Below, piece by piece: positions 3,001-52,899 of a stretch of DNA of 64,000 nt. This stretch comes from the human T2T-CHM13v2.0 reference genome, Homo sapiens. Below the pieces are notes generated by a model. It saw only the letters and a program-made list of their open reading frames with translations. It ran no database searches and was not told the DNA's origin. The position numbers were made by a program, and so were the translations under genes. The stretch lies in NCBI RefSeq assembly GCF_009914755.1, contig NC_060933.1; one strand, written 5' to 3'. The stretch's first letter is position 1. Each line of letters starts with the position of its first letter.

Positions 3001-5019
3001 ATCAACTCGATTGCAATGGAATGGAATGGAAGTGAAAGGAATAGAATGGAATCATCCCGAGTGGAATGGAATGGAAAGGACTGGAATGGAGTGGAATGGA
3101 ATGGAATGGAATTAACCCGAATAGAATGAAATGGAACGGAATGGAATGGAATGTAATGGAATGGAATGGAATGGAATCAACCCGAGTGCAGGGGAATGGA
3201 ATGGAATGGAATGCAATGGAATGGAATCATCCGGAATGGAAAGGAATGGAATGGAATGGAATGGAATGGAATGGAATGGAATGGAATCAACTCGATTTCA
3301 ATGGAATGGAATGGAATAGAATGGAATGGAATTAACACGAATAGAATGGAATGGAATGGAATTGAATGGAACAGAAAGGAATGGAATGGAATGGAATGGA
3401 ATCAACCCAAGTGCAGGGGAATGGAATGGAATGGAATTCAATGGAATGGAATCATCCGGAATGGAATGGAATGGAATGGAATGGAATGGAATGGAATGGA
3501 ATGGAATGGAATCAACCCGAGTGCAATGGAATGGAGAGGAATGGAATGGAATGGAATGGAAACTACACGAATCGAATGGAATGTAATGGAGTGTAAGGGA
3601 ATTGAATAGAATGAATCCGAATGGAATGGAATGGAATGGAATCAACGCGAGTGCAGGGGAATGGAATGTAATGGAATGCAATGGAATGGAATCTTCCGGA
3701 ATGGAATGGAATGGAATGGAATGCAATGGATTCAACTCGATTGCAATGGAATGGAATAGAATGGAATGGAATGGAATGGAATGGAATTAACCCGAATTGA
3801 ATGGAATAGAATGGAACGGAATGGAACGGAACGGAATGGAATGGAATGGAATGGAATGGAATGGAATGGTGGGGAATGGAATGGAATGGAATGGAATCAA
3901 CGCGAGTGCAGGGGAATGTAATGGAAAAGAATGTAATGGAATGGAATCATCCGGAATGGAATGGAATGGAATGGAATGGAATGGAATCAACCCGAGTGCA
4001 ATGGAATGGAGTGGAATGGAATGGAATGGAATGGAACAACCCGAATGGAATGGAATGTAATGGAGACTAAGGGAGTTGAATAGAATCAATCCGAATGTAA
4101 TGGAATGGAATGGAACGGAATGGAATGGAATGGAATGGAATGGAATGCAATTGAATGGAATCAACCCGAGTACAATGGAATGGAATGGAATGGAATGGAA
4201 TGGAATGGAATGGAATGGAATGGAATGGCTTCAAACCGAATGGAATGGAAAGGAATGGAATCAACACGAGTGGAATGGAATGGAATGGAATGGAATGCAA
4301 TCGAATGGAATGGAATGGAAAGAAATGGAATGGAATGGAATGGAATGGAATGGAATGGAATGGAATCGTTCCGAGTGGAATAGGAGGGAATGTATTCGAG
4401 TGGATTGGAAAGGAATGGAATCAACCAGACTGGAATGGAAGGGAATGGAATGGAATGGAAACTAATAGAATGGAATCAACCCGAGTGGAATGGAATGGAA
4501 AGGACTGGAATGGAATGGAATGGAATGGAATGGAATGGAATGGAATCAACCCGATTGTAATGGAATGGAATGGAATGGAATGGAATGGAATGGAATGGAA
4601 TGGAATGGAATGGAATGGAATTAACCCAAATACAATGGAATGGAATGGAATGGAACGGAATGGAGTGGAATGGAATGGAATCAACCCGAGTGCAGGGGAA
4701 TGGAATGGAATGGAATGGAATGCAATGGAATGGAATCATCCGGAATGGAATGGAATGGAATGGAATGCAAAGCAATGGAATCAACTCGATTGCAATGCAA
4801 TGGAATGGACTGGAAAGGAATACATTGGAATCAACCCGAGTGGAATGGAATGGAAAGGACTGGAATGGAGTGGAATGGAATGGAATGGAATGGAATGGAA
4901 TCAACTCGATTGGAATGGAATGGAATGGAATGGAATGGAATGGAATTAACCCGAATAGAATGGAATGGAATTAAATGGAAGGGAACGGAATGAAATGGAG
5001 TGGAATGGAATGGAATGGA

Positions 5020-8000
5020 ATGGAATGGAATGGAATGGAATCAACCCGACTGCAGGGGAATGGAATGGAATGGAATGCAATGGAATGCATTCAACTTGAA
5101 TGGAATGGAAAGAATGGAATCAACACGAGTGGAATGGCATGGATTGTAATCGAATGGAATGGAATGAACCCGAGTACAGGAGAATGGAATGGAATGGAAT
5201 GCAATGGAATGGAATCATCCGTAATGGAATGGAAAGGAATGGAATGGAATGGAATGGAATGGAATGGAATGGAATGGAATCAACTCGATTGCAATCGAAT
5301 GGAATGGAATGGAATTAACCCGAATAGAATGGAATGGAATGGAATGGAACGGAACGGAACGGAACGGAATGGAATGGAATGGAATGGAACGGAAAGGAAC
5401 GGAATGGAATGGAATGGAATGGAATGGAATCAACGCGAGTGCAGGGGAATGGAATGTAATGGAATGCAATGGAATGGAATCTTCCGGAATGGAATGGAAT
5501 GGAATGGAATGGAATCAACCCGAGTGCAATGGAGTGGAGTGGAATGGAATGGAATGGAATGGAACAACCCGAATGGAATGGAATGTAATGGAGAGTAAGG
5601 GAGTTGAATAGAATCATTCCGAATATAATGGAGTGGAATGGAACGGAATGGAATTGAATGGAATGGAATGGAATGCAATGGAATGGAATCAACCCGAGTG
5701 CAATGGAATGGAGAGGAATGGAATGGAATGGAATGGAAACTACCCGAATGGAATGGAATGTAATGGAGTGTAAGGGAATTGAATAGAATCAATCTGAATG
5801 GAATGCAATGGAATGGAATGGAATGGAATGGAATGGAATGGAATGGAATGGTATGGAATGGAATGGAATGGTACGGAATAGAATGGAAAGGAAAGAATTG
5901 GAATGGAATGGAATCAATTGGAATGGAATGGAATGGAATGGAATCAACCCGAGTGCAGGGGAATGTAATGGAACGGAATGCAATGGAATGCAATCATCCG
6001 GAATGGAATGGAAAGGAATGCAATGGAAAGGAATGGAATGGAATGGAATTAACCCGAATAGAATGGAATGGAATGGAATGGAACGGAACGGAATTGAATG
6101 GAATGGAATGGAATGGAACGGAAAGGAATGGAATGGAATGGAATGGAATGGAATGGAATGGAATGGAATCAACGCGAGTGCAGGGGAATGGAATGAAATG
6201 GAATGGAATGGAATGGAATGGAATGGAATCAACCCGAGTGCAATGGAATGGAGTGGAATGGAATGGAATGGAATGGAACAACCCGAATGGAATGGAATGT
6301 AATGGAGAGTAAGGGAATTGAAAAGAATCAATCCCACTGTAATGGAATGCAATGGAACGGAATAGAATGTAATTGAATGGAATGGAATGGAATGGAATGC
6401 AATGGAATGGAATCAATCCGAGTGCAATCGAATGGAATCGAATGGAATGGAATGCAATGGAATGGATTCAACTTGAATGGAATGGAAAGAATGGAATCAA
6501 CACGAGTGGAATGGCATGGATTGGAATGGAATGGAATGGAATCAACCCAAGTACAGGGGAATGGAATGGAATGGAATGCAATGGAATGGAATCATCCGTA
6601 ATGGAATGGAAAGGAATGGAATGGAACAGAATGGAATGGAATGGAATGGAATGGTATGGATTGGAATGGAATGGAATGGAATCAACGCGAGTGCAGGGGA
6701 ATGTAATGGAACGGAAAGCAATGGAATGGAATCATCGGGAATGGAATGGAATGGAATGGAATGGAATGGAATCAACCCGAGTGCAATGGAATGGAGTGGA
6801 ATGGAATGGAATGGAATGGAACAACCCGAATGGAATGGAATGTAATGGAGAGTAACGGAGTTGAATAGAATAAATCCGAATGTAATGGAATGTAATGGAA
6901 CGGAATGGAATGGAATGGAATGGAATGCAATGGAATGGAATCAACCCGAGTACAATGGAATGGAATGGAATGGAATGGAATGGAATGGAATGGAGTGGAA
7001 TGGAATGGAATGGAATGGCTTCAAACCGAATGGAATGGAAAGGAATGGAATCAACACGAGTGAAATGGAATGGAATGGAATGGAAACAACCAGAATTGAT
7101 TGGAATATAATGGAGTGTAAGGGAATTGAATAGAATCAATCTGAATGTAATGAAATGGAATGGAACGGAATGGAATGGAATGGAATGGAATGGAATGCAA
7201 TGGAATGGAATCAACCCGAGTGCAATCGAATGGAATCGAATGGAATGGAATGCAATGGAATGGATTCAACTTGAATGGAATGGAAAGAATGGAATCAACA
7301 CGAGTGGAATGGCATGGATTGGAATGGAATGGAATAGAGTCAACCCGAGTACAGGGGAATGGAATGGAATGGAATGCAATGGAATGGAATCATCCGTAAT
7401 GGAATGGAAAGGAATGGAATGGAATGGAATGGAATGGAATAGATTGGAATCAACTCGATTGTAATCGAATGGAACGGAATGGAATTAACCCCAATAGAAT
7501 GGAATGGAATGGAATGGAACGGAACGGAATGGAAGGGAATGGAATGGAATGGAATGCAATGGAACGGAAAGGAATGGAATGGAATGGAATGGAATGGAAT
7601 GGAATGGAATGGATTCAACGCGAGTGCAGGGGAATGGAATGGAATGGAATGCAATGGAATGGAATCTTCCGGAATGGATTGGAATGGAATGGAATGGAAT
7701 GCAATGGATTCAACTCGATTGCAATGGAGTGGAATAGAATGGAATGGAATGGAATGGAATTAACCCGAATAGAATGGAATGGAATGGAATGGAACGGAAC
7801 GGAACGGAACGGAACGGAATGGAATGGAATGGAATAGAATGGAATGGAATTGTATGGAATGGAATGGAATGGTACGGAATAGAATGGAATGGAAAGAATT
7901 GGAATGGAATGGAATCGAATGGAATGATATGGAATGGAATGGAATGGAATGGAATCAACCCGAGTGCAGGCGAATGTAATGGATCGGAATGCAATGGAAT

Positions 8001-11000
8001 GGAATCATCCGGAATGGAATGCAATGGAATGGAATGGAATGGAATGCAATGGAATGGAATCAACCCGAGTACAATGGAATGCAATGGAATGGAATGGAAT
8101 GGAATGGAATGCAAAGTAATGGAATCAAACCGAGTGCAATCGAATGGAATCGAATGGAATGGAATGCAATGGAATGGATTCAACTTGAATGGAATGGAAA
8201 GAATGGAATCAACACGAGTGGAATGGCATGGAATGGAATGGAATGGAATGGAATGGAATGGAATGGAATGGAATGGAATCAACCCGAGTACAGGAGAATG
8301 GAATGGAATGGAATGCAATGGAATGGAATCATTAGTAATGGAATGGAAAGGAATGGAATGGAATGGAATGGAATGGAATGAACTCGATTGCAATTGAATG
8401 GAATTGAATGGAATTAACCCGAATAGAATGGAATGGAATGGAATGGAACGGGACGGAATGGAATGGAATGGAATGGAATGGAACGGAACGGAACGGAATG
8501 GAATGGCATGGAATGGAATGGAATGGAATGGAATCAACGCGAGTGCAGGGGAATGGAATGGAATGGAATGGAATGGAATGGAATGGAATGGAATCAACCC
8601 GACTGCAGGGGAATGGAATGGAATGGAATGCAATGGAATGCATTCAACTTGAATGGAATGGAAAGAATGGAATCAACACGAGTGGAATGGCATGGATTGT
8701 AATCGAATGGAATGGAATGAACCCGAGTACAGGGGAATGGAATGGAATGGAATGCAATGGAATGGAATCATCCGTAATGGAATGGAAAGGAATGGAATGG
8801 AATGGAATGGAATGGAATGGAATGGAATGGAATCAACTCGATTGCAATCGAATGGAATGGAATGGAATTAACCCGAATAGAATGGAATGGAATGGAATGG
8901 AACGGAACGGAACGGAACGGAATGGAATGGAATGGAATGGAACGGAAAGGAACGGAATGGAATGGAATGGAATGGAATGGAATGGAATCAACGCGAGTGC
9001 AGGGGAATGGAATGTAATGGAATGCAATGGAATGGAATCTTCCGGAATGGAATGGAATGGAATGGAATGGAATCAACCCGAGTGCAATGGAGTGGAGTGG
9101 AATGGAATGGAATGGAATGGAACAACCCGAATGGAATGGAATGTAATGGAGAGTAAGGGAGTTGAATAGAATCATTCCGAATATAATGGAGTGGAATGGA
9201 ACGGAATGGAATTGAATGGAATGGAATGGAATGCAATGGAATGGAATCAACCCGAGTGCAATGGAATGGAGAGGAATGGAATGGAATGGAATGGAAACTA
9301 CCCGAATGGAATGGAATGTAATGGAGTGTAAGGGAATTGAATAGAATCAATCTGAATGGAATGCAATGGAATGGAATGGAATGGAATGGAATGGAATGGA
9401 ATGGAATGGAATGGTATGGAATGGAATGGAATGGTACGGAATAGAATGGAAAGGAAAGAATTGGAATGGAATGGAATCAATTGGAATGGAATGGAATGGA
9501 ATGGAATCAACCCGAGTGCAGGGGAATGTAATGGAACGGAATGCAATGGAATGCAATCATCCGGAATGGAATGGAAAGGAATGCAATGGAAAGGAATGGA
9601 ATGGAATGGAATTAACCCGAATAGAATGGAATGGAATGGAATGGAACGGAACGGAATTGAATGGAATGGAATGGAATGGAACGGAAAGGAATGGAATGGA
9701 ATGGAATGGAATGGAATGGAATGGAATGGAATGGAATCAACGCGAGTGCAGGGGAATGGAATGAAATGGAATGGAATGGAATGGAATGGAATGGAATCAA
9801 CCCGAGTGCAATGGAATGGAGTGGAATGGAATGGAATGGAATGGAACAACCCGAATGGAATGGAATGTAATGGAGAGTAAGGGAGTTGAAAAGAATCAAT
9901 CCGATTGTAATGGAATGCAATAGAACGGAATAGAATGGAATTGAATGGAATGGAATGGAATGGAATGCAATGGAATGGAATCAATCCGAGTGCAATCGAA
10001 TGGAATCGAATGGAATGGAATGCAATGGAATGGATTCAACTTGAATGGAATGGAAAGAATGGAATCAACACGAGTGGAATGGCATGGATTGGAATGGAAT
10101 GGAATGGAATCAACCCAAGTACAGGGGAATGGAATGGAATGGAATGCAATGGAATGGAATCATCCGTAATGGAATGGAAAGGAATGGAATGGAACAGAAT
10201 GGAATGGAATGGAATGGAATGGTATGGATTGGAATGGAATGGAATGGAATCAACGCGAGTGCAGGGGAATGTAATGGAACGGAAAGCAATGGAATGGAAT
10301 CATCGGGAATGGAATGGAATGGAATGGAATGGAATGGAATCAACCCGAGTGCAATGGAATGGAGTGGAATGGAATGGAATGGAATGGAACAACCCGAATG
10401 GAATGGAATGTAATGGAGAGTAACGGAGTTGAATAGAATAAATCCGAATGTAATGGAATGTAATGGAACGGAATGGAATGGAATGGAATGGAATGCAATG
10501 GAATGGAATCAACCCGAGTACAATGGAATGGAATGGAATGGAATGGAATGGAATGGAATGGAATGGAGTGGAATGGAATGGAATGGAATGGCTTCAAACC
10601 GAATGGAATGGAAAGGAATGGAATCAACACGAGTGAAATGGAATGGAATGGAATGGAAACAACCAGAATGGATTGGAATATAATGGAGTGTAAGGGAATT
10701 GAATAGAATCAATCTGAATGTAATGAAATGGAATGGAACGGAATGGAATGGAATGGAATGGAATGGAATGAAATGGAATGGAATCAACCCGAGTGCAATC
10801 GAATGGAATCGAATGGAATGGAATGCAATGGAATGGATTCAACTTGAATGGAATGGAAAGAATGGAATCAACACGAGTGGAATGGCATGGATTGGAATGG
10901 AATGGAATAGAGTCAACCCGAGTACAGGGGAATGGAATGGAATGGAATGCAATGGAATGGAATCATCCGTAATGGAATGGAAAGGAATGGAATGGAATGG

Positions 11001-12145
11001 AATGGAATGGAATAGATTGGAATCAACTCGATTGTAATCGAATGGAACGGAATGGAATTAACCCCAATAGAATGGAATGGAATGGAATGGAACGGAACGG
11101 AATGGAAGGGAATGGAATGGAATGGAATGCAATGGAACGGAAAGGAATGGAATGGAATGGAATGGAATGGAATGGAATGGAATGGATTCAACGCGAGTGC
11201 AGGGGAATGGAATGGAATGGAATGCAATGGAATGGAATCTTCCGGAATGGATTGGAATGGAATGGAATGGAATGCAATGGATTCAACTCGATTGCAATGG
11301 AGTGGAATAGAATGGAATGGAATGGAATGGAATTAACCCGAATAGAATGGAATGGAATGGAATGGAACGGAACGGAACGGAACGGAACGGAATGGAATGG
11401 AATGGAATAGAATGGAATGGAATTGTATGGAATGGAATGGAATGGTACGGAATAGAATGGAATGGAAAGAATTGGAATGGAATGGAATCGAATGGAATGA
11501 TATGGAATGGAATGGAATGGAATGGAATCAACCCGAGTGCAGGCGAATGTAATGGATCGGAATGCAATGGAATGGAATCATCCGGAATGGAATGCAATGG
11601 AATGGAATGGAATGGAATGCAATGGAATGGAATCAACCCGAGTACAATGGAATGCAATGGAATGGAATGGAATGGAATGGAATGCAAAGTAATGGAATCA
11701 ACCCGAGTGCAATCGAATGGAATCGAATGGAATGGAATGCAATGGAATGGATTCAACTTGAATGGAATGGAAAGAATGGAATCAACACGAGTGGAATGGC
11801 ATGGAATGGAATGGAATGGAATGGAATGGAATGGAATGGAATGGAATCAACCCGAGTACAGGAGAATGGAATGGAATGGAATGCAATGGAATGGAATCAT
11901 TAGTAATGGAATGGAAAGGAATGGAATGGAATGGAATGGAATGGAATGAACTCGATTGCAATTGAATGGAATTGAATGGAATTAACCCGAATAGAATGGA
12001 ATGGAATGGAATGGAACGGGACGGAATGGAATGGAATGGAATGGAATGGAACGGAACGGAACGGAATGGAATGGCATGGAATGGAATGGAATGGAATGGA
12101 ATCAACGCGAGTGCAGGGGAATGGAATGGAATGGAATGGAATGGA
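5020..12145 (+). repeat. Tandem duplication, 2 copies of a ~3.56 kb unit
   Basis: Identical or near-identical ORF translations recur at offsets 3553 (5100/8653), 3568 (6477/10045, 8398/11966) and 3573 (7126/10699, 7744/11317). Rare markers such as atcattccgaatataat, taacggagtt, caggcgaatgt and cattagtaat each occur twice. Boundaries are approximate. Confidence 0.92.
5476..5490 (+). promoter_or_regulatory. Canonical heat-shock element (nGAAnnTTCnnGAAn), representative left-arm copy
   Basis: gGAAt-cTTCc-gGAAt. Further copies start at 1379, 3688, 7661, 9034, 11234 and 12158. The consensus match is direct; function is inferred. Confidence 0.6.
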
Positions 12146-13419
12146 ATGCAATGGAATGGAATCTTCCGGAATGGAATGGAATGGAATGGAATGGAATGGA
12201 ATGGAATGGAATGGAATTAACCCGAATACAATGGAATGGAATGCAATGGAACGGAATGGAGTGGAATGGAATGGAATCAACCCGAGTGCAGGGGAATGGA
12301 ATGGAATGGAATGCAATGGAATGGAATCATCCGGAATGGAATGGAATGGAATGGAATGCAATGCAATGGAATCAACTCTATTGCAATGGAATGGAATGGA
12401 AAGGAATAGAATGGAATCAACCCGAGTGGAATGGAATGGAAAGGACTGGAATGGAGTGGAATGGAATGCAATGGAATGGAATTAACTCGATTGGAATGGA
12501 ATGGAAAGGAATGGAATGGAATTAACCCGAATAGAATGGAATGCAATGGAATGGAACGGAATGGAATAGAATGGAATGGAATGGAATGGAATGGAAAGGA
12601 ATCAAACCGACTGCAGGGGAATGGAATGGAATGGAATGCAATGGAATGGAATCATCCGGAACGGAATGGAATGGAATGTAATGGAATCAACTCGATTGCA
12701 ATGGAATGGAATGGAATGGAATGGAATGGAATTCACCCGAATAGAATGGAATGGAATGGAATGGAAAGGAATGGAAGGGAAGGGAATGGAATGTAATCAA
12801 CCCGAGTGCAGGGGAATGGAATGGAATGGAATGCAATGGAATGGAATCATGCGGAATGGAATGGAATGGAATGGAATGGAATGGAATGGAATGGAATGGA
12901 ATAGAATGCAATGGAATGGAATCAACCCGAGTACAATGGAATGGAATGGAATGGAATGGAATGGAATGGAATGGAATGGAATGGAATTGAATGGAATGGA
13001 ATGCCTTCAAACTGAATGGAATGGAAAGGAATGTAATCAACACGAGTGGAATGGAATCGAATGGAATGGAATGGAATGGAATGGAATGGTACGGAATAGA
13101 ATGGAATGGAACGAAATGGAATGGAATGGAATGGAATGGAATCGTTCCGAGTGGAATAGGAGGGAATGTATTCGAGTGAAATGGAAAGGAATGGAATCAA
13201 CCAGTGTGCAATGGAAGGGAATGGAATGGAATGGAAACTAATAGAATGGAATCAACCCGAGTGGAATGGAATGGAAAGGACTGGAATGGAATGGAATGGA
13301 ATGGAATGGAATCAACTCCATTGTAATGGAATGGAATGGAATGGAAAGGAATGGAATGGAATGCAATGGAATTAACCCGAATACAATGAAAAGGAATGGA
13401 ATGGAACGGAATGCAAAGC

Positions 13420-13447
13420 AATGGAATCAACTCGGGTTGATTCCATT
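13420..13447. other. Inversion / strand-switch breakpoint forming a 28-bp quasi-palindrome
   Basis: aatggaatcaac-tcgg-gttgattccatt: perfect 12-bp inverted arms (13420-13431 and 13436-13447) around a 4-nt spacer. Satellite polarity flips exactly here. Confidence 0.97.
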
Positions 13448-13812
13448 CCCTTCTTTCCATTCCATTCCATTCCATTCCATTCCATTCCGTTCCATTCCAT
13501 TCCATTACATTCGGATTGATTCTATTCAATTCCCTTACACTCCATTACATTCCATTCCATTCGGGTAGTTTCCACTCCATTCCATTCCCCTCCTCTCCAT
13601 TCCATTGCACTCGGGTTGACTCCATTCCATAGCATTCCATTCCATTCCATTCAATTCCATTCCGTTCCATTCCATTCCATTACATTCGGATTGATTCTAT
13701 TCAACTCCCTTACTCTCCATTACATTCGATTCCATTCAGGTTGTTCCATTCCATTCCATTCCATTCCACTCCATTCCATTGCACTCGGGTTGATTCCATT
13801 CCATTCCATTCC

Positions 13813-13827
13813 ATTCCGGAAGATTCC
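13813..13827 (-). promoter_or_regulatory. Canonical heat-shock element, representative right-arm copy (nearest the junction)
   Basis: aTTCc-gGAAg-aTTCc. It recurs at e.g. 15639, 16024, 18639, 20169, 21017, 22330, 26411, 53490, 53555 and 60711. Confidence 0.6.
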
Positions 13828-15499
13828 ATTCCATTACATTCCATTACATTCCATTCCCCTGCACTCGCGTTGATTCCATTCCATTCCATTCCATTCCATT
13901 CCATTCCATTCCATTCCATTACTTTCCGTTCCATTCCATTCCATTCCATTCCATTCCATTCCGTTCCGTTCCGTTCCATTCCATTCCATTCCATTCTATT
14001 CGGGTTAATTCCATTCCATTCCATTCGATTGCAATCGAGTTGATTCCATTCCATTCCATTCCATTCCATTCCATTCCATTCCATTCCTTTCCTTTCCATT
14101 ACGGATGATTCTATTCCATTGCATTCCATTCCATTCCATTCCCCTGTACTCGGGTTGATTCCATTCCATTCCATTCCAATCCATGCCATTCCACTCGTGT
14201 TGATTCCATTCTTTCCATTCCATTCAAGTTGAATCCATTCCATTGCATTCCATTCCATTCGATTCCATTCGATTGCACTCGGGTTGATTCCATTCCATTG
14301 CATTCCATTCCATCCCATTTCTTTCCATTGCATTCCTTTCCATTCCATTCCATTCCATTCCATGCGATTGCAATCGAGTTGATTCCATTCCATTCCTTTC
14401 CATTCCATTCCATTGCCTTGCATTCCACTCGGGTTGATTCCATTCCCTTCTTTACACTCCATTACATTCCCTTCCATTCCACTCGGAATGATTGATTCCA
14501 TTCCATTCCATTCCATTTCATTCCATTGCAATCCATTCCAATCCATTCGTTATATTCCATTCCACTCGAGTTGATTTCATTCCATTCCTTTCCATTCCAT
14601 TCCATTCCTTTCCACTCGAGTTGATTCCATTCCATTCCATTCCTTTGCATTCCATTCCATGCCATTCCACTCGGGTTGATTCCATTCCATTCCATTCCAT
14701 TCCATTCCATTCCATTCCATTCCATTCCATTGCATTCCATTCCATTCCATTCCCCTGCAGTCGGGTTGATTTCATTCCATTCCATTCCATTCCATTCCAT
14801 TCCATTCCATTCCGTTCCGTTCCGTTCCATTCCATTCCATTCCATTCCATTCTATTCGGGTTAATTCCATTCCATTCCAATCCTTTCCATTCCATTCCAT
14901 TCCAATCGAGTTGATTCCATTCCATTTCATTCCATTCCATTCCACTCCATTCCAGTCCTTTCCATTCCATTCCACTCGGGTTGATTCCAATGTATTCCTT
15001 TCCATTCCATTCCATTCCATTGCAATCGAGTTGATTCCATTGCTTTGCATTCCATTCCGGATGATTCCATTCCATTGCATTCCATTCCATTCCATTCCCC
15101 TGCACTCGGGTTGATTCCATTCCATTCCACTCCATTCCGTTCCATTCCATTCCATTCCATTGTATTCGGGTTAATTCCATTCCATTCCATTCCATTCCAT
15201 TCCATTCCATCACAATCGAGTTGGTTCCATTCCATTCCATTCCATTCCATTCCATTCCATTCCATTCCATTCCGGATGATTCCATTCCATTACATTCCGT
15301 TCCATTATATTCCCCTGCACTCGGGTTGATTCCATTCCATTCCATTCCTTTCCATTCGATTCCATTCCATTCCAATTCTTTCCATTCCGTTCTATTCCGT
15401 ACCTTTCCATTCCATTCCATACCATACCATTCCATTCCATTCCATTCCATTCCGTTCCGTTCCGTTCCGTTCCATTCCATTCCATTCCATTGTATTCGG

Positions 15500-18400
15500 G
15501 TTAATTCCATTCCATTCCATTCCATTCCATTCCATTCTATTCCATTCCATTGCAATCGAGTTGAATCCATTGCGTTCAATTCCATTCCATTCCATTCCAT
15601 TGCAATCGAGTTGAATCCATTGCATTCCATTCCATTCCATTCCGGAAGATTCCATACCATTGCATTCCATTCCATTCCATTCCCCTGCACTCGCGTTGAT
15701 TCCATTCCATTCCATTCCATTCCGTTCCGTTCCGTTCCGTTCCATTCCATTCCATTCCGTTCCGTTCCGTTCCGTTCTGTTCCATTCCATTCCATTCTAT
15801 TCGGGTTAATTCCATTCCATTCCATTCGATTGCAATCGAGTTGATTCCATTCCATTCCATTCCATTCCATTCCATTCCATTCCATTCCTTTCCATACCAT
15901 TACAGATGATTCCATTCCACTGCATTACATTCCATTCCATTCCCCTGTACTCGGGTTGATTCCATTCCATTCCATTCCATTCCATTCCATTCCATTCCAT
16001 TCTATTCCATTCCATTCCATTCCATTCCGGAAGATTCCATTCCATTGCATTCCATTCCATTCCATTCCCCTGCACACGCGTTGATTCCATTCCATTCCAT
16101 TCCATTCCATGCCATTCCATTCCGATCCGTTCCATTCCATTCCATTCCATTCCATTCCGTTCCGTTCCATTCCATTCCATTCCATTCCATTCTATTCGGG
16201 TTAATTCCATTCCATTCCATTCGATTGCAATCGAGTTGATTCCATTCCATTCCATTCCAATCCATGCCGTTCTACTCGTTATGATTCCATTCTTTCCATT
16301 CCATTCAAGTTGAATCCATTCCATTGCATTCCATTCCATTCGATTCCATTCGATTGCACTCGGGTTGATTCCATGGCATTGCATTCCATTCCATTCCATT
16401 CCATTCCATTCCTTTCCATTCCATTCCATTCCATTCCATTCCATTCGGATTCATTCTATTCAATTCCCTTACACTCCATTACATTCCATTCCATTCGTGT
16501 AGATTCCATTCCATTCCATTCCATTCCTCTCCATTCCATTGCACTCGGGTTATTCCATTCCATTCAATTCCATTCCATTCCATTCCATTCCATTCCATTC
16601 CGGATGATTCCATTCCATTGAATTCCATTGCATTCCATTCCCCTGCACTTGGGTTGATTCCATTCCATTCCATTCCATTCCTTTCTTTTGCATTCCATTC
16701 CATTCCATTCCATTCCATTCTTTCGTGTTAATTCCATTCCATTCTATTCCATTCCATTCCATTGAAATCGAGTTGATTCCATTCCATTCCATTCCATTCC
16801 ATTCCGGATGATTCCATTCCATTGCATTCCATTCCATTCCATTCCCCTGCACTCGGGTTGATTCCATTCCATTCCATTCCATTACATTGCATTCCATTCC
16901 GTTCCATTTCATTCTATTCGTGTTAATTCCATTCCATTCCATTCCACTCCATTCCAGTGCTTTCCATTCCATTCCACTCGGGTTGATTCCATTCTATTCC
17001 TTTCAATTCCATTCCATTCCATTGCAATCGAGTTGATTCCATTCGAGTTGAATCCATTCTATTCCATTCCATTCCATTCCATTGCACACGGGTTCATTCC
17101 TTTCCATTCCATTCCATTCCATTCCATTCCATTCCATTCTATATCATTCCATTCCATTCTATTCCTTACCATTCCATTCCATCCAATTCCATTCCGTTCC
17201 ATTCCATGCCATTACACTCGGGTTGATTCCATTCCTTTCCATTCCATTCTTGTTGAATCCATTCCATTGCATTCCATTCCATTCCATTTCATTCCATTCC
17301 ATTCCATTACATTCGGATTGACTCTATTCAATTCCCTTACACTCCATTACATTCCATTACATTCGGGATGTTTCCATTCCATTCCATTCCATTCCACTCC
17401 ATTCCATTGCATCAGGTTGATTGCATTCCATTCCATTCCATTCCATTCCGGATGATTCCATTCCATTGCATTCCATTCCATTACATTCCCCTGCACTCGG
17501 GTTGATTCCATTCCATTCCATTCCATTCCATTCCATTCCATTCCATTCCATTCCGTTCCATTCCATTCCATTCCATTCTATTCCGGTTAATTCCATTCCA
17601 TTCCATTTTATTCCATTCCATTCCATTCCATTCCATTGCAATCGAGTTGATTCCATTCCATTCCATTCCATTCCGTTCCGGATGATTCCATTCCATTCCA
17701 TTCCATTTCATTCCATTCCCCTGCACTCGGGTTGATTCCATTCCATTGCATTCCATTCCATTCCGTTCCATTCCATTCCATTCCATTCTATTCGGTTTAA
17801 TTCCATTCCATTCCATTCCATTCCATTCCATTCCATTCCAATCGAGTTGATTCCTTTCCATTCCATTCCATTCCATTCCATTCCACTCCATTCCAGTCCT
17901 TTCCATTGCATTACGCTCGGGTTGATTCCATTCTATTCCCTTCCATTCCATTCCATTCCATTGCAATCGAGTTGATTCCATTGCTTTGCATTCCATTCCA
18001 TTCCATTCCATTCCGGATGATTCCATTCCATTGCATTCCTTTCCATTCCATTCCCCTGCACTCGGGTTGATTCCATTCCATTCAACTCCATTCCGTTCCA
18101 TCCCGTTCCATTCCATTGTATTCGGGTTAATTCCATTCCATTCCATTCCATTCCATTCCATTCCATTCCATTCCATTCCATTACAATCGAGTTGATTCCA
18201 TGCCATTCCATTCCATTCCATTCCATTCCAGTCCTTTCCATTCCATTCCACTCGGGTTGATTCCATTCTATTAGTTTCCATTCCATTCCATTCCCTTCCA
18301 TTCCACTCTGGTTGACTCCATTCCTTTCCATTCCACTCGAATACATTCCCTCCTATTCCACTCGGAACGATTCCATTCCATTCCATTCCATTCCATTCCA

Positions 18401-21400
18401 TTCCATTCCATTCCATTCCAGTTCGTTCCATTCCGTTCTATTCCGTACCATTCCATTCCATTCCATACCTTTCCATTCCATTCCTTTCCACTCGTGTTGA
18501 TTCCATTCTTTCCATTCCATTCGGTTTGAAGGCATTCCATTCCATTCAATTCCATTAAATTCCATTCCATTCCATTCCATTCTATTCCATTCCATTGCAA
18601 TCGAGTTGAATCCATTGCCTTTCATTCCATTCCATTCCATTCCGGAAGATTCCATTCCATTGCATTGCATTCCATTCCATTCCCCTGCACTCGCGTTGAT
18701 TCCATTCCATTCCATTCCATTCCATTCCGTTCCGTTCCATTCCATTGCATTCCATTCCATTCCGTTCTGTTCCATTCCATTCCATTCTATTCGGGTTAAT
18801 TCCATTCCATTCCATTCGATTGCCATCGAGTTGATTCCATTCCATTCCATTCCATTCCTTTCCATTCCTTTCCATTCCAGTACGGATGACTCCATTCCAT
18901 TGCATTCCATTCCATTCCATTCCCCTGTACTCGGGTTGATTCCATTCCATTCCATTCCACTCCATTCGTTTCCGTTGCATTGCATTCTATTGCATTCCAT
19001 TCTATTCGGGTTAATTCCATTCCATTCTATTCCATTCCATTCCATTCCATTCCATTGCAATGGAGTTTATTCCATTCCATTCCATTCCATTCCAGATGAT
19101 TCCATTCCATTGCATTCCATTCCATTCCATTCCCCTGCACTCCTGATGATTCCATTCCCTTCCATTCCATTCCATTCCGTTCCATTCCATTCCATTCCAT
19201 TCTATTCCGGTTAATTCCATTCCATTCCATTCCATTCCATTGCAATCGAGTTGATTCCATTCCATTCCTTTCCATTCCATTCCATTGCCTTGCATTCCAC
19301 TCGGGTTGATTCCATTCCCTTCTTTCCACTCCATTACATTCCCTTCCATGATTGATTCCATTCCATTCCATTCCATTTCATTCCATTGCAATCCATTCCA
19401 ATCCATTCCATTCCATTCCATTCCACTCGAGTTGACTTCATTCCATTCCTTTCCATTCCATTCCATTCCTTTCCACTCGTGTTGATTCCATTCCTTTCCA
19501 ATCCATTGCATTCCATTCCATGCCATTCCACTCGGGTTGATTCCATTCCTTTGCATTCCATTCCATTCCATTCCATTCCATTCCATTCCATTCCGTTGCA
19601 TTCCATTCCATTACATTCGGATTGATTCTATTCAACTCCCTTACTCTCCATTACATTCCATTCCATTCGGGTTGTTCCATTCCATTCCATTCCATTCCAC
19701 TCCATTCCATTGCACTCGGGTTGATTCCATTCCATTCCATTCTATTCCATTCCATTCCATTCCGGATGATTCCATTCCATTGCATTCCGTTCCATTACAT
19801 TCCCCTGCACTCGCGTTGATTCCATTCCATTGCATTCCATTCCATTCAATTCCATTCCATTACATTCCCCTGCACTCGCGTTGATTCCATTCCATTCCAT
19901 TCCATTCCATTCCATTCAATTCCATTCCATTACAATTCGTTCCATTCCATTCTATTCCGTACCATTCCATTCCATTCCATACCATTCCATTCCATTCCAT
20001 TCCATTCCATTCCGTTGCATTCCGTTCCATTCCATTCCATTGCATTCTATTCGGGTTAATCCCATTCCATTCCATTCCATTCCATTCTATTCCATTCCAT
20101 TGCAATCGTGTTGAATCCATCGCATTTCATTCCATTCCATTCCATTCCATTCCATTCCATTCCATTCCATTCCGGAAGATTCCATTCCATTGCATTCCAT
20201 TCCATGCCATTCCCCTGCACTCGCGTTGATTCCATTCCATTCCATTCCATTCCATTCCATTCCATTCCGTTCCGTTCCGTTCCATTCCATTCCATTCCAT
20301 TCCATTCCATTCCGTTCCATTCCATTCCATTCCATTCCATTCTATTCGGGTTAATTCCATTCCATTCCATTCGATTGCAATCGTGTTGATTCCATTCCAT
20401 TCCAATCCATTCCATTCCATTCCATTCCATTTCTTTCCTTTCCATTCCATTACGGATGATTCCATTCCATAGCATTCCATTCCATTCCATTCCCCTGTAC
20501 TCGAGTTGATTCCATTCCATTGCATTCCAATCCATGCCCTTCCACTCGTGTTGATTCCATTCTTTCCATTCCATTCAAGTTGAATCCATTCCATTGCATT
20601 CCATTCCATTCGATTCCATTCGATTGCACTCGGGTTGATTCCATTCCATTGCATTCCATTCCATTCCATTCCATTCCATTCCATTCCGTTCCATTCCATT
20701 CCATTACATTCGGATTGATTCTATTCAATTCCCTTACACTCCATTACATTCCATTCCATTCGGGTAGTTTCCATTCCATTCCATTCCATTCCTCTCCATT
20801 CCATTGCACTCGGGTTGATTCCATTCCATTGCATTCCATTCCATTCCATTCAATTCCATTCCTTTCCTTTCCATTCCATTACATTCGGATTGACTCTATT
20901 CAACTCCCTTACTCTCCATTACATTCCATTCCATTCGGGTTGTTCCATTCCATTCCATTCCATTCCACTCCATTCCATTGCACTCGGGTTTATTCCATTC
21001 CATTCCATTCCATTCCATTCCGGAAGATTCCATTCCATTGCATTCCATTCCATTCCATTCCCCTGCACTCGCGTTGATTCCTTTCCATTCCATTCCATTC
21101 CATTCCATTCCATTCCATTCCATTCCTTTCCGTTCCATTCCATTCCATTCCATTCCATTCCATTGCATTCCGTTCCGTTCCATTCCGTTCCGTTCCGTTC
21201 CATTCCATTCCATTCTATTCGGGTTAATTCCATTCAATTCCATTCGATTGCAATCGAGTTGATTCCATTCCATTCCATTCCATTCCATTCCATTCCTTTC
21301 CATTCCATTACGGATGATTCCATTCCATTGCATTCCATTCCATTCCATTCCCCTGTACTCCGGTTGATTCCATTCCATTCCATTCCAATCCATGCCATTC

Positions 21401-24400
21401 CACTCGTGTTGATTCCATTCTTTCCTTTCCATTCAAGTTGAATCCATTCCATTGCATTCCATTCCATTCCATTCCCCTGCAGTCGGGTTGATTCCATACC
21501 ATTCCATTCCATTCCATTCCATTCCATTCCATTCCGTTCCATTCCATTCCATTCCATTCTATTCGGGTTAATTCCATTCCATTCCATTCCATTCCATTCT
21601 ATTCCAATCGAGTTGATTCCATTCCATTCCATTCCATTCCATTCCACTCCGTTCCAGTCCTTTCCATTCCATTCCACTCGGGTTGATTCCAATGTATTCC
21701 TTTCCATTCCACTCCATTCCATTGAACTCGTGTTGATTCCATTCCATTCCATTCCATTCCATTCCATTCCATTCCGGATGATTCCATTCCATTGCATTCC
21801 ATTCCATTCCATTCCCCTGCACTCCGGTTGATTCCATTCCATTCCACTCCATTCCGTTGCATTCCATTCCATTACATTCGGATTGATTCTATTCAACTCC
21901 CTTACTCTCCATTACATTCCATTCCATTCCTGTTGTTCCATTCCATTCCATTCCATTCCACTCCATTCCATTGCACTCGGGTTGATTCCATTCCATTCCA
22001 TTCCATTCCATTCCATTCCATTGCATTCCGTTCCATTACATTCCCCTGCACTCGCGTTGATTCAATTCCATTCCATTCAATTCCATTCCATTACAATTCG
22101 TTCCATTCCATTCTATTCCGTACCATTCCATTCCATTCCATACCATTCCATTCCATTCCATTCCATTCCATTCCATTCCGTTCCATTCTGTTCCATTGCA
22201 TTCCATTCCATTCTATTCTGGTTAATTCCATTCCATTCCATTCCATTCCATTCTATTCCATTCCATTGCAATCGAGTTGAATCCATTGAATTTCATTCCA
22301 ATCCATTCCATTCCATTCCATTCCATTCCATTCCGGAAGATTCCATTCCATTGCATTCCATTCCATTCCATTCCCCTGCACTCGCGTTGATTCCATTCCA
22401 TTCCATTCCTTTCCGTTCCGTTCCGTTCCGTTCTATTCCATTCCATTCCGTTCCGTTCCGTTCCATTCCGTTCCATTCCATTCCATTCTATTCGGGTTAA
22501 TTCCATTCCATTCCATTCGATTGCAAACGAGTTGATTCCATTCCATTCCATTCCATTCCATTCCATTCCATTCCATTCCATTCCTTTCCATTCCATTACG
22601 GATGATTCCATTTCACTGCATTCCATTCCATTCCATTCCCCTGTACTCGGGTTGATTCAATTCCATTCCATTCCATTCCATTCTATTCCATTCCATTCCA
22701 TTCCATTCCGGAAGATTCCATTCCATTGCATTCCATTCCATTCCATTCCCCTGCACTCACGTTGATTACTTTCCATTCCATTCCATTCCATTCCATTCCA
22801 TTCCATTCCATTCCGATCCGTTCCATTCTATTCCATTCCATTCCATTCCGTTCCGTTCCATTCCATTCCATTCCATTCCATTCTATTCGGGTTAATTCCA
22901 TTCCATTCCATTCGATTGCAATCGAGTTGATTCCATTCCATTCCATTCCAATCCATGCCTTTCCACTCGTGTTGATTCCATTCTTTCCATTCCATTCAAG
23001 TTGAATCCATTCCATTGAATTCCATTCCATTCGATTCCATTCGATTGCACTCGGGTTGATTCCATGGCTTTGCATTCCATTCCATTCCATTCCATTCCAT
23101 TCCATTCCTTTCCATTACTTTCCATTCCATTCCATTCGGATTCATTCTATTCAATTCCCTTACACTCCATTACATTCCATTCCATTCGTGTAGTTTCCAT
23201 TCCATTCCATTCCATTCCTCTCCATTCCATTGCACTCGGGTTGATTCCATTCCATTCCATTCCATTCCATTCCATTCCATTCCATTCCGGATGATTCCAT
23301 TCCATTGAATTCCATTGCATTCCATTCCCCTGCACTTGGGTTGATTCCATTCCTTTCCATTACATTCCTTTCTTTTCCATTCCATTCCATTCCATTCCAT
23401 TCCATTCTTTCGTGTTAATTCCATTCCATTCTATTCCATTCCATTCCATTGAAATCGAGTTGATTCCATTCCATTCCATTCCATTCCATTCCATTCCATT
23501 CCATTCCATTCCGGATGATTCCATTCCATTCCATTCCATTCCATTGCATTCCATTGTACTCGGGTTGATTCCATTCCATTGCATTCCATTCCATTCCATT
23601 CCATTCCATTCCGTTGCATTCCATTCCATTACATTCGTATTGATTCTATTCAACTCCCTTACTCTCCATTACATTCCATTCCATTCGGGTTGTTCCATTC
23701 CATTCCATTCCATTCCACTCCATTCCATTGCATTCGGGTTGATTCCATTCCATTCCATTCCATTCCATTCCATTCCATTCCATTCCATTCCGGATGATTC
23801 CATTCCATTGCATTCCGTTCCATTACATTCCCCTGCACTCGCGTTGATTCCATTCCATTCCATTCAATTCCATTCCATTACAATTCGTTCCATTCCATTC
23901 TATTCCGTACTATTCCATTCCATTCCATACCATTCCATTCCATTCCATTCCATTCCATTCCTTTCCATTCCGTTCCATTGCATTCTGTTCGGGTTAATTC
24001 CATTCCATTCCATTCCATTCCATTCTATTCCATTCCATTGCAATCGAGTTGAATCCATTGCATTTCATTCCGTTCCATTCCATTCCATTCCATTCCGGAA
24101 GATTCCATTCCATTGCATTCCATTCCATTCTATTCCCCTCCACTCGCGTTGATTCCATTCCATTCCATTCCATTCCATTCCATTCGGGATGATTCCATTC
24201 CATTGCATTCCATTCCATTCCATTCCCCTGCACTCGGGTTCATTCCATTCCATTCCATTCCATTACATTCCATTCCATTCCGTTCCATTTCATTCTATTC
24301 GGGTTAATTCCATTCCATTCCATTCCACTCCATTCCAGTCCTTTCCATTCCATTCCACTCGGGATGATTCCATTCTATTCCTTTCAATTCCATTCCATTC

Positions 24401-26000: not shown

Positions 26001-26249
26001 ATTCCATTCCATTACATTCCATTCCATTCCATTTCCCTGCACTCGCGTTGATTCCATTCCATTCCATTGCATTCCGTTCCATTACATTCCCCTGCACTCG
26101 TGTTGATTCCATTCCATTCTATTCCATTCCATTCAATTCCATTCCATTACAATTCGTTCCATTCCATTCTATTCCGTACCATTCCATTCCATTCCATACC
26201 ATTCCATTCCATTCCATTCCATTCCATTCCATTCAATTCCATTCCATTC

Positions 26250-39170: not shown

Positions 39171-39210
39171 CCGTTCCGTTCCGTTCCGTTCCGTTCCGTT
39201 CCGTTCCGTT
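39171..39210 (+). repeat. (CCGTT)8 CpG-containing variant-pentamer run
   Basis: Eight consecutive ccgtt units. Six-unit runs occur at 41111-41140 and 44261-44290. Confidence 0.92.
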
Positions 39211-52859: not shown

Positions 52860-52899
52860 CATTACATTACATTACATTACATTACATTACATTACATTA
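52860..52899 (+). repeat. (CATTA)8 variant-pentamer microsatellite inside the satellite
   Basis: c attacattac attacattac attacattac attacatta. Elsewhere CATTA occurs only singly or in pairs. Confidence 0.93.

What the first reader, a model, noticed from the sequence alone, without database searches (positions are those of the whole stretch)
13420..13447. Base-resolved satellite strand switch joined through 5-bp ACTCG microhomology, leaving a 28-bp palindrome
Seen: the left flank is the common motif gcaaagcaatggaatcaACTCG(attgc), and the right flank is the common motif (cattcc)ACTCGggttgattccattcccttct. The two overlap at ACTCG (13430-13434) with no inserted foreign bases. The product has 12-bp perfect inverted arms around tcgg. 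Inference: pure GGAAT has essentially no homology to its own complement, so the CpG-containing, quasi-palindromic variant motifs may be the main places where this satellite can switch strand by template switching or microhomology-mediated joining. That would be a sequence-encoded inversion rule. Many inversions in large human HSat3 arrays are established from T2T assemblies; I do not know whether this junction rule has been described.
Basis: partly seen in the sequence, partly recalled or inferred. Interest (0 to 1): 0.85.

Follow-up and report, generated by a model that had tools for sequence, protein, structure and literature searches.

The report
Amplified HSat3 strand-switch junction, chromosome 9
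The strand flip is real and was joined through five shared bases, but it is one old rearrangement scar that large duplications have copied at least 52 times across the chromosome 9 satellite block, so it does not by itself show a sequence rule for inversions.

Summary
Observation confirmed. Window 13420-13447 reads AATGGAATCAAC-tcgg-GTTGATTCCATT and is the only GGAAT-to-ATTCC switch in the 64 kb. Uninterrupted paralogs show both parents: left CAACTCG|ATTGC (11 of 12), right CATTCC|ACTCGGGTTG. This gives a 5-bp ACTCG overlap with no filler.

It is not a unique event. The exact 28-mer occurs 42 times, and 52 times with one mismatch allowed, all on chr9 51.07-75.68 Mb and in both orientations. 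Flanks are homologous, and junction order is conserved over megabase blocks.

Eight junction sequences (A-H) account for 206 copies, with at least 11 further switches unlisted. This matches the published figure of over 200 breakpoints.

Six of the 8 founder junctions have at least 2 bp of microhomology, against 13.9% expected for random joins, so microhomology-mediated joining is supported.

The proposed rule is not established. Three of 8 classes lie in plain pentamers. No enrichment near CpG was shown for the six classes tested. The commonest opposite-strand homology tested is unused. No other motif-to-motif junction exists in CHM13.

Only one of the three classes tested for arms (class C, outside the window) is a true fold-back with long arms.

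The parts
13420..13447 (+). 28-bp junction palindrome: 12-bp perfect inverted arms AATGGAATCAAC / GTTGATTCCATT around tcgg. I call this junction class A.
   Evidence: Sequence read. Hairpin -14.8 kcal/mol, z = -5.0. 42 exact and 10 one-mismatch copies, all on chr9.
13430..13434 (+). ACTCG: the 5-bp microhomology shared by the two parental sequences, that is, the breakpoint interval.
   Evidence: Left parent ..GGAATCAACTCG|ATTGC in 11 of 12 uninterrupted paralogs. Right parent ..CATTCC|ACTCGGGTTG in 13 of 19, and ..GATTGC|ACTCGGGTTG in the four 95-96% paralogs.
1..13431 (+). HSat3 array in GGAAT orientation. It continues upstream to chr9:71,706,100, about 103 kb in all.
   Evidence: 1500 GGAAT against 3 ATTCC. 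TRF period 5 over 24-13427. Orientation map of 264 kb.
13436..64000 (+). HSat3 array in ATTCC orientation.
   Evidence: 5660 ATTCC against 7 GGAAT. TRF period 5 over 13440-64000.
12181..13431 (+). A 1.25-kb left flank that is not collinear with the 3.57-kb nested repeat to its left. It is conserved with the junction in other copies.
   Evidence: Rare 18-mer diagonals at offset about -3570 stop after tile 11931-12180. Flanks out to -1.5 kb align at 0.9 or more in most copies.
1..12180 (+). Nested tandem repeat of about 3.57 kb within the GGAAT-oriented array.
   Evidence: Nearest-neighbour distances of rare 20-mers peak at 3553-3573. Tiles show offset -3560 to -3580.

Best explanation
This is one copy of a single ancestral strand-switch junction in the chr9 HSat3 (9q12) array. 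I call it class A.

Formation (partly shown, partly inferred): a GGAAT-oriented stretch ending in the variant motif GGAATCAACTCG(ATTGC) was joined to an ATTCC-oriented stretch beginning (CATTCC)ACTCGGGTTGATTCC. The join used the 5 bases ACTCG that both share, and no filler was added. That overlap is shown from paralogs. It exists because the HSat3 10-mer CAACNCGAGT is quasi-palindromic, since ACTCGAGT is self-complementary. Because both parents carry GGAATCAAC next to the overlap, the product is a 12+4+12 palindrome. The enzymology is inferred: microhomology-mediated end joining, or replicative template switching of the FoSTeS/MMBIR type.

Spread (shown): the junction and its flanks were copied by duplications from about 100 kb to about 10 Mb, both direct and inverted. 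One of these is the multi-megabase 9qh+ duplication reported for CHM13. The result is at least 52 copies in both orientations. The copy in this window lies in a roughly 0.9-Mb block that is an inverted duplicate of 64.99-65.89 Mb.
For: Anatomy and parents.

Microhomology beyond chance: 5 bp or more arises in 0.15% of random opposite-strand joins. Six of 8 founder classes have 2 bp or more, P = 1.6e-4; without class A it is 5 of 7, P = 8.5e-4.

Single origin plus amplification:
- 42 exact copies, all on C9, 15 on + and 27 on -, plus 10 with one mismatch.
- The left-flank 24-mer ACGGAATGCAAAGCAATGGAATCA is followed by the junction in 8 of 8 occurrences in the pool.
- Flanks of the 8 fetched copies align to the window at 0.9-1.0 in most 250-column bins over +/-1.5 kb.
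- Over 600 nt the 9 other copies score 0.77-0.94 on the left and 0.73-0.96 on the right. Background medians are 0.75 and 0.74, with maximum 0.857.
- 28, 20 and 11 consecutive junctions recur in the same order and strand at offsets of 8.74-8.80 and 10.57-10.65 Mb. Nine recur inverted, and that block includes this junction.

Literature (passages read):
[quoted passage not shown] - The number of switches correlates with array length, r = 0.90 (10.64898/2026.07.22.740206).
Against: The parents are inferred from present-day paralogs, not from the true ancestral alleles. If the left parent had been the commoner CAACCCGAGT form, the overlap would be only 2 bp (AC).

Some copies have flank stretches at background identity. 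L004's right flank scores 0.73. L005 and L008 have a large indel just right of the junction. Later rearrangement, conversion or partial recurrence near the junction is therefore not excluded.

Collinearity between the A(-) copy at 71,618,746 and this copy could be followed only for a few kb, with indels.

No read-level or other-assembly check of this particular copy was possible.
Confidence: 0.8

Rival explanations
1. Sequence-encoded inversion rule: CpG-bearing quasi-palindromic variant motifs are the main sites where HSat3 switches strand, so the many chr9 junctions reflect recurrent events at such motifs.
For: Five of 8 founder classes (A-E) have at least one breakpoint inside or beside a CpG-bearing variant motif:
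- A: both sides.
- B: TG/TGCA next to ACTCGGGTTG.
- C: GAACC|CGTGTGC.
- D: ATTACGGA|TGATTCC.
- E: AAACC|CGAGTGC.
Those five classes make up 196 of the 206 copies. Any microhomology other than AT needs a variant base. Clean pentamer-to-pentamer switches are rare genome-wide: 5 sites for GGAAT>ATTCC with a gap of 8 or less, and 9 sites for ATTCC>GGAAT with a gap of 4 or less.
Against: Copies are not independent events. Among classes C-H, only 3 of 6 have a side within 2 nt of a CpG, against 27% expected, P = 0.20. With A and B included it is 5 of 8, P = 0.038, but A generated the hypothesis and B was found as a 2-mismatch neighbour of A. Classes F, G and H join plain pentamers. No other GGAATCAAC..GTTGATTCC junction with a 5-30 nt gap exists in CHM13. 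The junction expected from the abundant ATTGCA homology gave 0 matches. How the classes were found is uneven: two by pure-pentamer patterns, two by gap filling.
Confidence: 0.2
2. Fold-back (hairpin or palindromic) inverted duplication: the 28-bp palindrome is the centre of a once-long palindrome made by fold-back priming at a break.
For: The junction is a perfect 12-bp-arm hairpin. A true fold-back does exist nearby: class C at chr9:71,706,100 has arms 94-98% identical over about 1.2 kb, offset by an 89-nt spacer. Copies of A lie on both sides of class C copies in opposite orientation.
Against: Beyond the 12 bp, the reverse complement of the left 3 kb aligns to the right 3 kb at 0.68-0.86, which is background level. 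No antidiagonal of rare 18-mers is centred on the junction. The right flank instead matches left-array positions 4-8 kb away. The 12-bp arms are fully explained by the GGAATCAAC motif present in both parents.
Confidence: 0.07
3. Two-step origin: a first join at the 8-bp TCGATTGC shared by CAACTCGATTGC (left) and CATTCGATTGCACTCGGG (right), followed by a 10-bp slippage deletion between the two ACTCG repeats.
For: The four closest right-flank paralogs (95-96% identity) carry TCGATTGC immediately before ACTCG, and the left parent carries TCGATTGC after CAAC. TCGATTGC is among the commonest 8-mers shared by the two orientations, at 7.1% of shared mass.
Against: No precursor form GGAATCAAC-(5..30 nt)-GTTGATTCC exists anywhere in CHM13; the only hit is an unrelated chr12 palindrome. 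The paralogs that share the junction-specific 24-mer on the right are preceded by GCATTCC, not GATTGC. A one-step join is more economical.
Confidence: 0.04
4. Assembly artefact: a chimeric or fold-back read error fixed in the assembly.
For: Reads could not be examined.
Against: There are 52 copies with diverged flanks spread over 24.6 Mb. GGAAT>ATTCC and ATTCC>GGAAT classes alternate almost perfectly, 104 against 102, with only 11 adjacent same-type pairs among 206. Independent assemblies are reported to carry about 129 switches per chr9 haplotype (PMC13684623, passage read) and hundreds across assemblies (10.64898/2026.07.22.740206).
Confidence: 0.02

Closest known systems
Inversion breakpoints (strand switches) of the chr9 HSat3B5 array in T2T-CHM13 (Altemose et al., 10.1101/2021.07.12.452052, section 7 read). 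Later population counts: 10.64898/2026.07.22.740206 and PMC13684623, passages read.
   Same: Same array and same phenomenon. My minimum count is 217 switches: 206 listed plus at least 11 implied. This fits 'over 200 inversion breakpoints', a figure stated jointly for the chr9 array and beta-satellite arrays. The reported correlation of switch number with array length (r = 0.90) is what amplification of junction-bearing duplicons predicts.
   Different: [quoted passage not shown] They do not give base-resolved junctions, microhomology, or a reduction to founder classes. Their supplements were not open to me and may hold more.
Microhomology-mediated rearrangement junctions: MMEJ (alt-EJ) and replicative template switching, FoSTeS/MMBIR. 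This is established knowledge, recalled, not read here.
   Same: There is a 5-bp overlap present in both parents, no filler, and opposite strands are joined. Across the eight classes the overlaps are 0-5 bp, far above the random-join mean of 0.53 bp.
   Different: The pathway cannot be told from sequence alone. No templated insertions or multi-jump signatures were seen at this junction.
Fold-back inverted duplications and palindromic amplicons (established knowledge, recalled). The local example is class C at chr9:71,706,100.
   Same: The junction joins opposite strands and has a short hairpin-forming centre.
   Different: Class A lacks extended arms. Class C has them: 94-98% identity over about 1.2 kb with an 89-nt spacer.
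[quoted passage not shown]
   Same: My junction-order blocks at offsets of 8.74-8.80 and 10.57-10.65 Mb are consistent with this duplication. It explains about half of the copies.
   Different: Copies within one block are already numerous and diverged. L001-L008, all at 51.07-54.61 Mb, show this. Earlier rounds of amplification are therefore needed too.

Membership tests
Human satellite 3 (HSat3), chr9 q12 array | (GGAAT)n / (ATTCC)n pentamer array interspersed with CAACCCGAGT-type 10-mers | tested here: met
   TRF period 5 across the window. Perfect pentamer 10-mers cover 62.5%. GGAATCAAC followed by NCGAGT variants.
Human satellite 3 (HSat3), chr9 q12 array | Subfamily B5 assignment by diagnostic k-mers | not tested
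   Taken from the literature: 'large pericentromeric HSat3B5 array on chr9', together with the hub's coordinates. No k-mer classification was run.
Microhomology-mediated junction (MMEJ or FoSTeS/MMBIR) | Bases at the join are present in both parental sequences (2 bp or more) and there is no untemplated filler | tested here: met
   ACTCG is shared. Left parent 11 of 12. Right parent 13 of 19, plus the four 95-96% paralogs. P(5 bp or more) = 0.0015 for random joins.
Microhomology-mediated junction (MMEJ or FoSTeS/MMBIR) | Dependence on Pol theta, or on replication fork template switching | not testable with these tools
   Sequence alone cannot separate the pathways.
Fold-back inverted duplication / long palindrome | Inverted arms extending well beyond the junction at above-background identity | tested here: not met
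   Arms score 0.68-0.86 over 3 kb, which is background. No centred antidiagonal. Positive control: class C at 0.94-0.98.
Amplified (paralogous) junction within segmental duplications | Many copies with homologous flanks on both sides | tested here: met
   42 exact plus 10 one-mismatch copies. Nine other copies compared: 8 are above background on both sides, and L004's right flank is at background.
Amplified (paralogous) junction within segmental duplications | Conserved order, spacing and orientation of neighbouring junctions between copies | tested here: met
   Runs of 28, 20 and 11 junctions recur directly, and a run of 9 recurs inverted and includes this junction.
Sequence-encoded strand-switch hotspot | Independent (non-homologous) junctions enriched at the motif relative to its coverage | tested here: inconclusive
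   3 of 6 unbiased classes lie near a CpG against 27% expected, P = 0.20. There is no second motif-to-motif junction in CHM13. There are only 8 classes, and how they were found is uneven.

The most novel reading that the evidence does not exclude
Nearly all of the more than 200 strand switches of the 9q12 HSat3 block descend from about ten founder junctions. Most of these were made by microhomology joins that needed a variant base, often one beside a CpG, because plain GGAAT offers only AT to its complement. On this reading the satellite's own variant motifs set where it can invert. The junction 28-mers would then serve as lineage markers that let the amplification history and 9qh size polymorphism be reconstructed and genotyped from reads.
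Probability: 0.3. Interest if true: 0.6.

Novelty: new member of a known kind. Interest (0 to 1): 0.4.

Why it matters
Strand switches in the largest human satellite block were known only as counts. Here one of them is resolved to the base. It was joined through 5-bp microhomology in a quasi-palindromic motif. It is also one of only eight junction sequences that explain 206 of at least 217 switches in CHM13 chr9.

This changes how breakpoint statistics in satellites should be read: copies are not events. It explains why switch number tracks array length. It gives short diagnostic k-mers that could be used to trace how the 9qh heterochromatin grew and varies between people. It does not establish a new inversion rule.

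Tried and rejected
- A tiled blastn of the window timed out. A blastn of the two arms around class C with word size 64 returned 0 HSPs after 215 s and is uninformative. I replaced both with k-mer diagonals and pairwise alignment.
- Whether the whole 190-kb interval A(-)...C...A(+) is one large palindrome: rare 24-mer antidiagonals are strong only near class C and near the A copies, and k=16 diagonals are noisy. This is left open.
- Whether class B is merely class A with two substitutions: rejected. Flanks on both sides are at background identity.
- Two-step origin through TCGATTGC: no precursor found.
- A junction at the abundant ATTGCA homology: 0 matches for the one 20-mer form tested. Other forms would look like normal sequence and could not be tested this way.
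- A genome-wide unbiased catalogue: not possible. Pattern listings stop at about 100 rows; one search was cut at chr9 53.96 Mb. Chromosomes after 9 were therefore seen only through the narrow patterns.
- Enrichment near CpG: not significant for the unbiased classes.

Full report
**1.

Window 13420-13447 reads AATGGAATCAAC tcgg GTTGATTCCATT. The two 12-bp arms are perfect reverse complements, and ACTCG lies at 13430-13434.

It is the only strand switch in the window.
- In 200-bp bins the orientation is GGAAT up to 13400 and ATTCC from 13401 to the end.
- Positions 1-13431 hold 1500 GGAAT and 3 ATTCC. Positions 13436-64000 hold 5660 ATTCC and 7 GGAAT. The ten minority pentamers are scattered singly.
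- Tandem Repeats Finder sees two period-5 arrays, 24-13427 (GAATG) and 13440-64000 (ATTCC).
- As single-stranded DNA, 13405-13465 folds at -14.8 kcal/mol against -5.07 +/- 1.94 for 200 shuffles (z = -5.0, none as good).

**2. The two parents and the 5-bp overlap**

In GGAAT orientation the array's non-pentamer motif is GGAATCAAC-N-CGAGTG. Variants include CAACCCGAGT, CAACGCGAGT, CAACACGAGT and CAACTCGATT.

Left parent. The left-flank 16-mer AAGCAATGGAATCAAC occurs 12 more times in the window, once forward and 11 times reverse. It is followed by TCGATTGC in 11 of 12 and by TGGATTGC in 1. The left parent therefore read ..GGAATCAACTCG|ATTGC.

Right parent. The four closest paralogs of the right flank (95-96% over about 390 nt, at 20628, 35877, 41482 and 46277) read ..CATTCGATTGC|ACTCGGGTTGATTCC. 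In the 264-kb plus loci pool, the junction-specific 24-mer GGTTGATTCCATTCCCTTCTTTCC occurs 29 times.
- 10 of these are copies of this junction.
- Of the 19 uninterrupted sites, 13 are preceded by CATTCCACTCG, 5 by CATTCCAATCG, and 1 by something else.

Both readings put the right breakpoint at the A of ACTCG. The overlap exists because ACNCGAGT is nearly self-complementary. The 12-bp arms follow from GGAATCAAC lying next to the overlap in both parents.

Caveat: the parents are inferred from paralogs. A CAACCCGAGT left parent would give only a 2-bp (AC) overlap.

**3. It is one junction copied many times**

The whole assembly could be searched.
- The exact 28-mer occurs 42 times. All copies are on chr9 between 51,074,569 and 75,682,203, 15 on the + strand and 27 on the - strand. 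The reversed-pattern control gave 0.
- Ten more copies differ by one base.
- Because the centre tcgg is not self-complementary, the strand of each copy can be read. Both orientations are present.

The flanks are homologous.
- In a MAFFT alignment of the window with the first eight copies (+/-1.5 kb), most 250-column bins are 0.9-1.0 identical to the window.
- Over 600 nt, with gaps counted as mismatches, the nine other copies score 0.77-0.94 on the left and 0.73-0.96 on the right.
- Forty random sites carrying the same 12-mer have medians of 0.75 and 0.74 and a maximum of 0.857.
- Against this: L004's right flank (0.73) is at background, and L005 and L008 have a large indel just right of the junction.
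- The left 24-mer ACGGAATGCAAAGCAATGGAATCA is followed by the junction in 8 of 8 occurrences in the pool.

**4. The other junctions of the array**

I found seven further junction sequences, all on chr9, by three routes: generic patterns, two-mismatch neighbours of class A, and fetching intervals where two like-type junctions were adjacent.

| Class | Direction | Junction sequence | Copies |
|---|---|---|---|
| B | GGAAT>ATTCC | AATGGAATGCACTCGGGTTGATTCCATT | 28 + 2 |
| C | ATTCC>GGAAT | CATTCCATTCCGTGTGCAATGGAATGGA | 80 + 3 |
| D | ATTCC>GGAAT | TCCATTCCATTACGGAATGGAATG | 11 |
| E | GGAAT>ATTCC | GGAATGGAATAAACCCATTCCGTTCCATT | 20 |
| F | GGAAT>ATTCC | GGAATGGAATCCATTCCATTCC | 2 |
| G | ATTCC>GGAAT | ATTCCATTCCATTCGGAATGGAAT | 6 |
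| H | ATTCC>GGAAT | GGGTTGATTCCAT\|GGAATGGAATCAACCC | 2 |

With class A (52 copies) this makes 206 copies, 104 of one direction and 102 of the other. Along the chromosome the two directions must alternate. Only 11 adjacent pairs break the alternation, so at least 11 switches remain unlisted (it was 35 before classes E-H). The minimum of 217 fits 'over 200 inversion breakpoints', a figure stated jointly for the chr9 HSat3B5 array and beta-satellite arrays (10.1101/2021.07.12.452052, section 7 read).

**5. How the copies spread**

The string of junction labels repeats over megabases.
- 28 consecutive junctions at 52.339-54.280 Mb recur in the same order and strand at 61.082-63.081 Mb (offset 8.74-8.80 Mb).
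- 20 junctions at 54.61-57.95 Mb recur at 65.18-68.57 Mb (offset 10.57-10.62 Mb).
- 11 junctions at 60.20-60.83 Mb recur at 70.86-71.44 Mb.
- 9 junctions at 64.99-65.89 Mb recur in inverted order with flipped strands at 71.57-72.44 Mb. This block contains the junction of this window, and its partner is the copy at 65,640,103(-).

[quoted passage not shown] This explains the largest offsets. Copies within a single block are already many and diverged (L001-L008), so earlier rounds of amplification are also needed.

A 2026 preprint finds that switch number correlates with array length (r = 0.90). [quoted passage not shown] Another reports about 129 switches per chr9 haplotype (PMC13684623, passages read). 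Amplification of junction-bearing duplicons predicts such a correlation.

In the passages and the one section I read, I saw no base-level junction analysis. Searches for HSat3 with microhomology, strand switch, HSat3B5 and inverted duplication listed none. The supplements were not open to me.

**6. Surroundings of this copy**

I fetched the 200 kb upstream. Orientation there runs as follows:
- GGAAT to 71,618,800, which is an A(-) copy.
- ATTCC to 71,706,100, which is a class C junction.
- GGAAT to 71,809,430, which is this junction.
- ATTCC to the end.

Class C is a true fold-back. The reverse complement of its left arm aligns to its right arm at 0.94-0.98 for about 1.2 kb, starting 89 nt to the right of the join.

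Class A is not a fold-back. Its arms align at 0.68-0.86 over 3 kb, which is background level, and class H behaves the same way. No antidiagonal of rare 18-mers is centred on it.

Whether the whole A(-)...C...A(+) interval was once one palindrome is open.

Inside the window:
- The left array has a 3.57-kb nested repeat up to about 12180.
- The last 1.25 kb before the junction departs from that repeat.
- The right array has periods of 3.18, 2.7 and 5.87 kb.

**7. Mechanism**

Parents reconstructed from paralogs give the following overlaps (F, G and H from the junction strings).

| Class | Overlap | Parent evidence |
|---|---|---|
| A | 5 bp (ACTCG) | see section 2 |
| B | 2-4 bp (TG or TGCA) | — |
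| C | 2 bp (CC) | right parent GAACCCGTGTGCAATGG in 12 of 21 |
| D | 3-4 bp (GGA or CGGA) | left parent CCATTACGGATGATTCC in 76 of 244 |
| E | 2 bp (CC) | left parent AAACCCGAGTGC in 18 of 27 |
| F | 1 bp | from the junction string |
| G | 0-1 bp | from the junction string |
| H | 2 bp (AT) | from the junction string |

I simulated 300,000 random joins between opposite-oriented stretches of this array. The mean overlap was 0.53 bp. The fractions were 13.9% for 2 bp or more, 2.5% for 3 bp or more, and 0.15% for 5 bp or more.

Six of 8 classes have 2 bp or more, P = 1.6e-4. Without class A it is 5 of 7, P = 8.5e-4. Microhomology-mediated joining is thus supported for the founders as a group. Which pathway acted (end joining or replicative template switching) is inference.

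**8. The proposed rule**

What supports it:
- Plain GGAAT shares only AT with its complement.
- Classes A-E each have a breakpoint in or beside a CpG-bearing variant motif.
- Clean pentamer-to-pentamer switches are rare genome-wide: 5 sites with a gap of 8 or less for GGAAT>ATTCC and 9 sites with a gap of 4 or less for ATTCC>GGAAT.

What goes against it:
- Copies are not independent events.
- Classes F, G and H join plain pentamers.
- 14-15% of positions lie within 2 nt of a CpG, so 27% of random joins have at least one such side. Among classes C-H, 3 of 6 do (P = 0.20). With A and B included it is 5 of 8 (P = 0.038), but A generated the hypothesis and B was found through A.
- The search for GGAATCAAC and GTTGATTCC facing each other 5-30 nt apart found only an unrelated chr12 palindrome.
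- The longest abundant opposite-strand homologies are ATTGCAAT and its parts. ATTGCAAT is 18.6% of shared 8-mer mass, and TGCAAT and ATTGCA are 11.1% and 10.9% of shared 6-mer mass. The one junction form I could test for them has 0 matches.

The rule is therefore a reasonable corollary of microhomology use, not a demonstrated hotspot. How the classes were found is uneven: F and G by pure-pentamer patterns, E and H by gap filling, C and D by a pattern that needs perfect pentamer dimers within 30 nt. Chromosomes after 9 were seen only through narrow patterns.

**9. Verdict**

It belongs to a known kind: the chr9 HSat3 strand switches, and microhomology junctions in general.

What appears to be new, within what I could search, is twofold. 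First, this switch is resolved to the base. Second, about 95% of the array's switches (206 of at least 217) are copies of eight junction sequences.

The interpretation as a sequence-encoded inversion rule rests on one founder event and is not established. Interest is moderate.

Noticed in passing
chr9:71,706,100 (outside the window; L019/L020, about 103 kb upstream of the finding): The class C junction ..CCATTCCATTCC|GTGTGCAATGGAATGG is a true fold-back. Its arms are 94-98% identical over about 1.2 kb and are offset by an 89-nt spacer. It has 83 copies on chr9 and is the commonest switch in the array.
   Followed up: partly
window 1-12180 and 13436-64000: Nested tandem repeats sit above the 5-bp unit. 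The GGAAT arm has a period of about 3.57 kb. The ATTCC arm has periods of about 3.18, 2.7 and 5.87 kb (rare 20-mer spacing).
   Followed up: partly
window about 12180: The 3.57-kb repeat stops about 1.25 kb before the junction. The last 1.25 kb matches other places only weakly, which suggests a second, same-strand breakpoint that travels with the junction in its copies.
   Followed up: no
chr9 52.3-72.4 Mb (junction coordinates only): The order of junction classes repeats at offsets of 8.74-8.80 and 10.57-10.65 Mb, and once inverted (64.99-65.89 against 71.57-72.44 Mb). This is consistent with the published 9qh+ multi-megabase duplication of CHM13, plus an inverted block.
   Followed up: partly
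chr9 gaps such as 51.07-52.13, 63.43-64.36, 64.83-64.86 and 75.25-75.40 Mb: Eleven adjacent same-direction junction pairs remain, so at least 11 switches belong to classes or diverged copies that are not yet identified.
   Followed up: no
chr7:58,746,835 and 59,010,655; chr14:4,700,274; chr7:58,725,954 and 59,037,545; chr1:204,088,217: These are the few clean pentamer-to-pentamer strand switches outside chr9. The chr7 ones occur as mirror-image pairs. The chr14 one joins at GGAATTCC, a perfect 8-bp palindrome with the maximal 2-bp AT overlap.
   Followed up: no
chr12:58,768,751-58,768,797: A 47-bp near-palindrome GGAATCAACC...GGTTGATTCC that is unrelated to the satellite. It was the only hit of the motif-to-motif pattern.
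   Followed up: no
window 1061, 5616, 9174 (ATTCC in the GGAAT arm); 14485, 28399, 28832, 34271, 34704, 40254, 48509 (GGAAT in the ATTCC arm): Isolated single pentamers of the opposite orientation. None is clustered, so there are no micro-inversions.
   Followed up: yes
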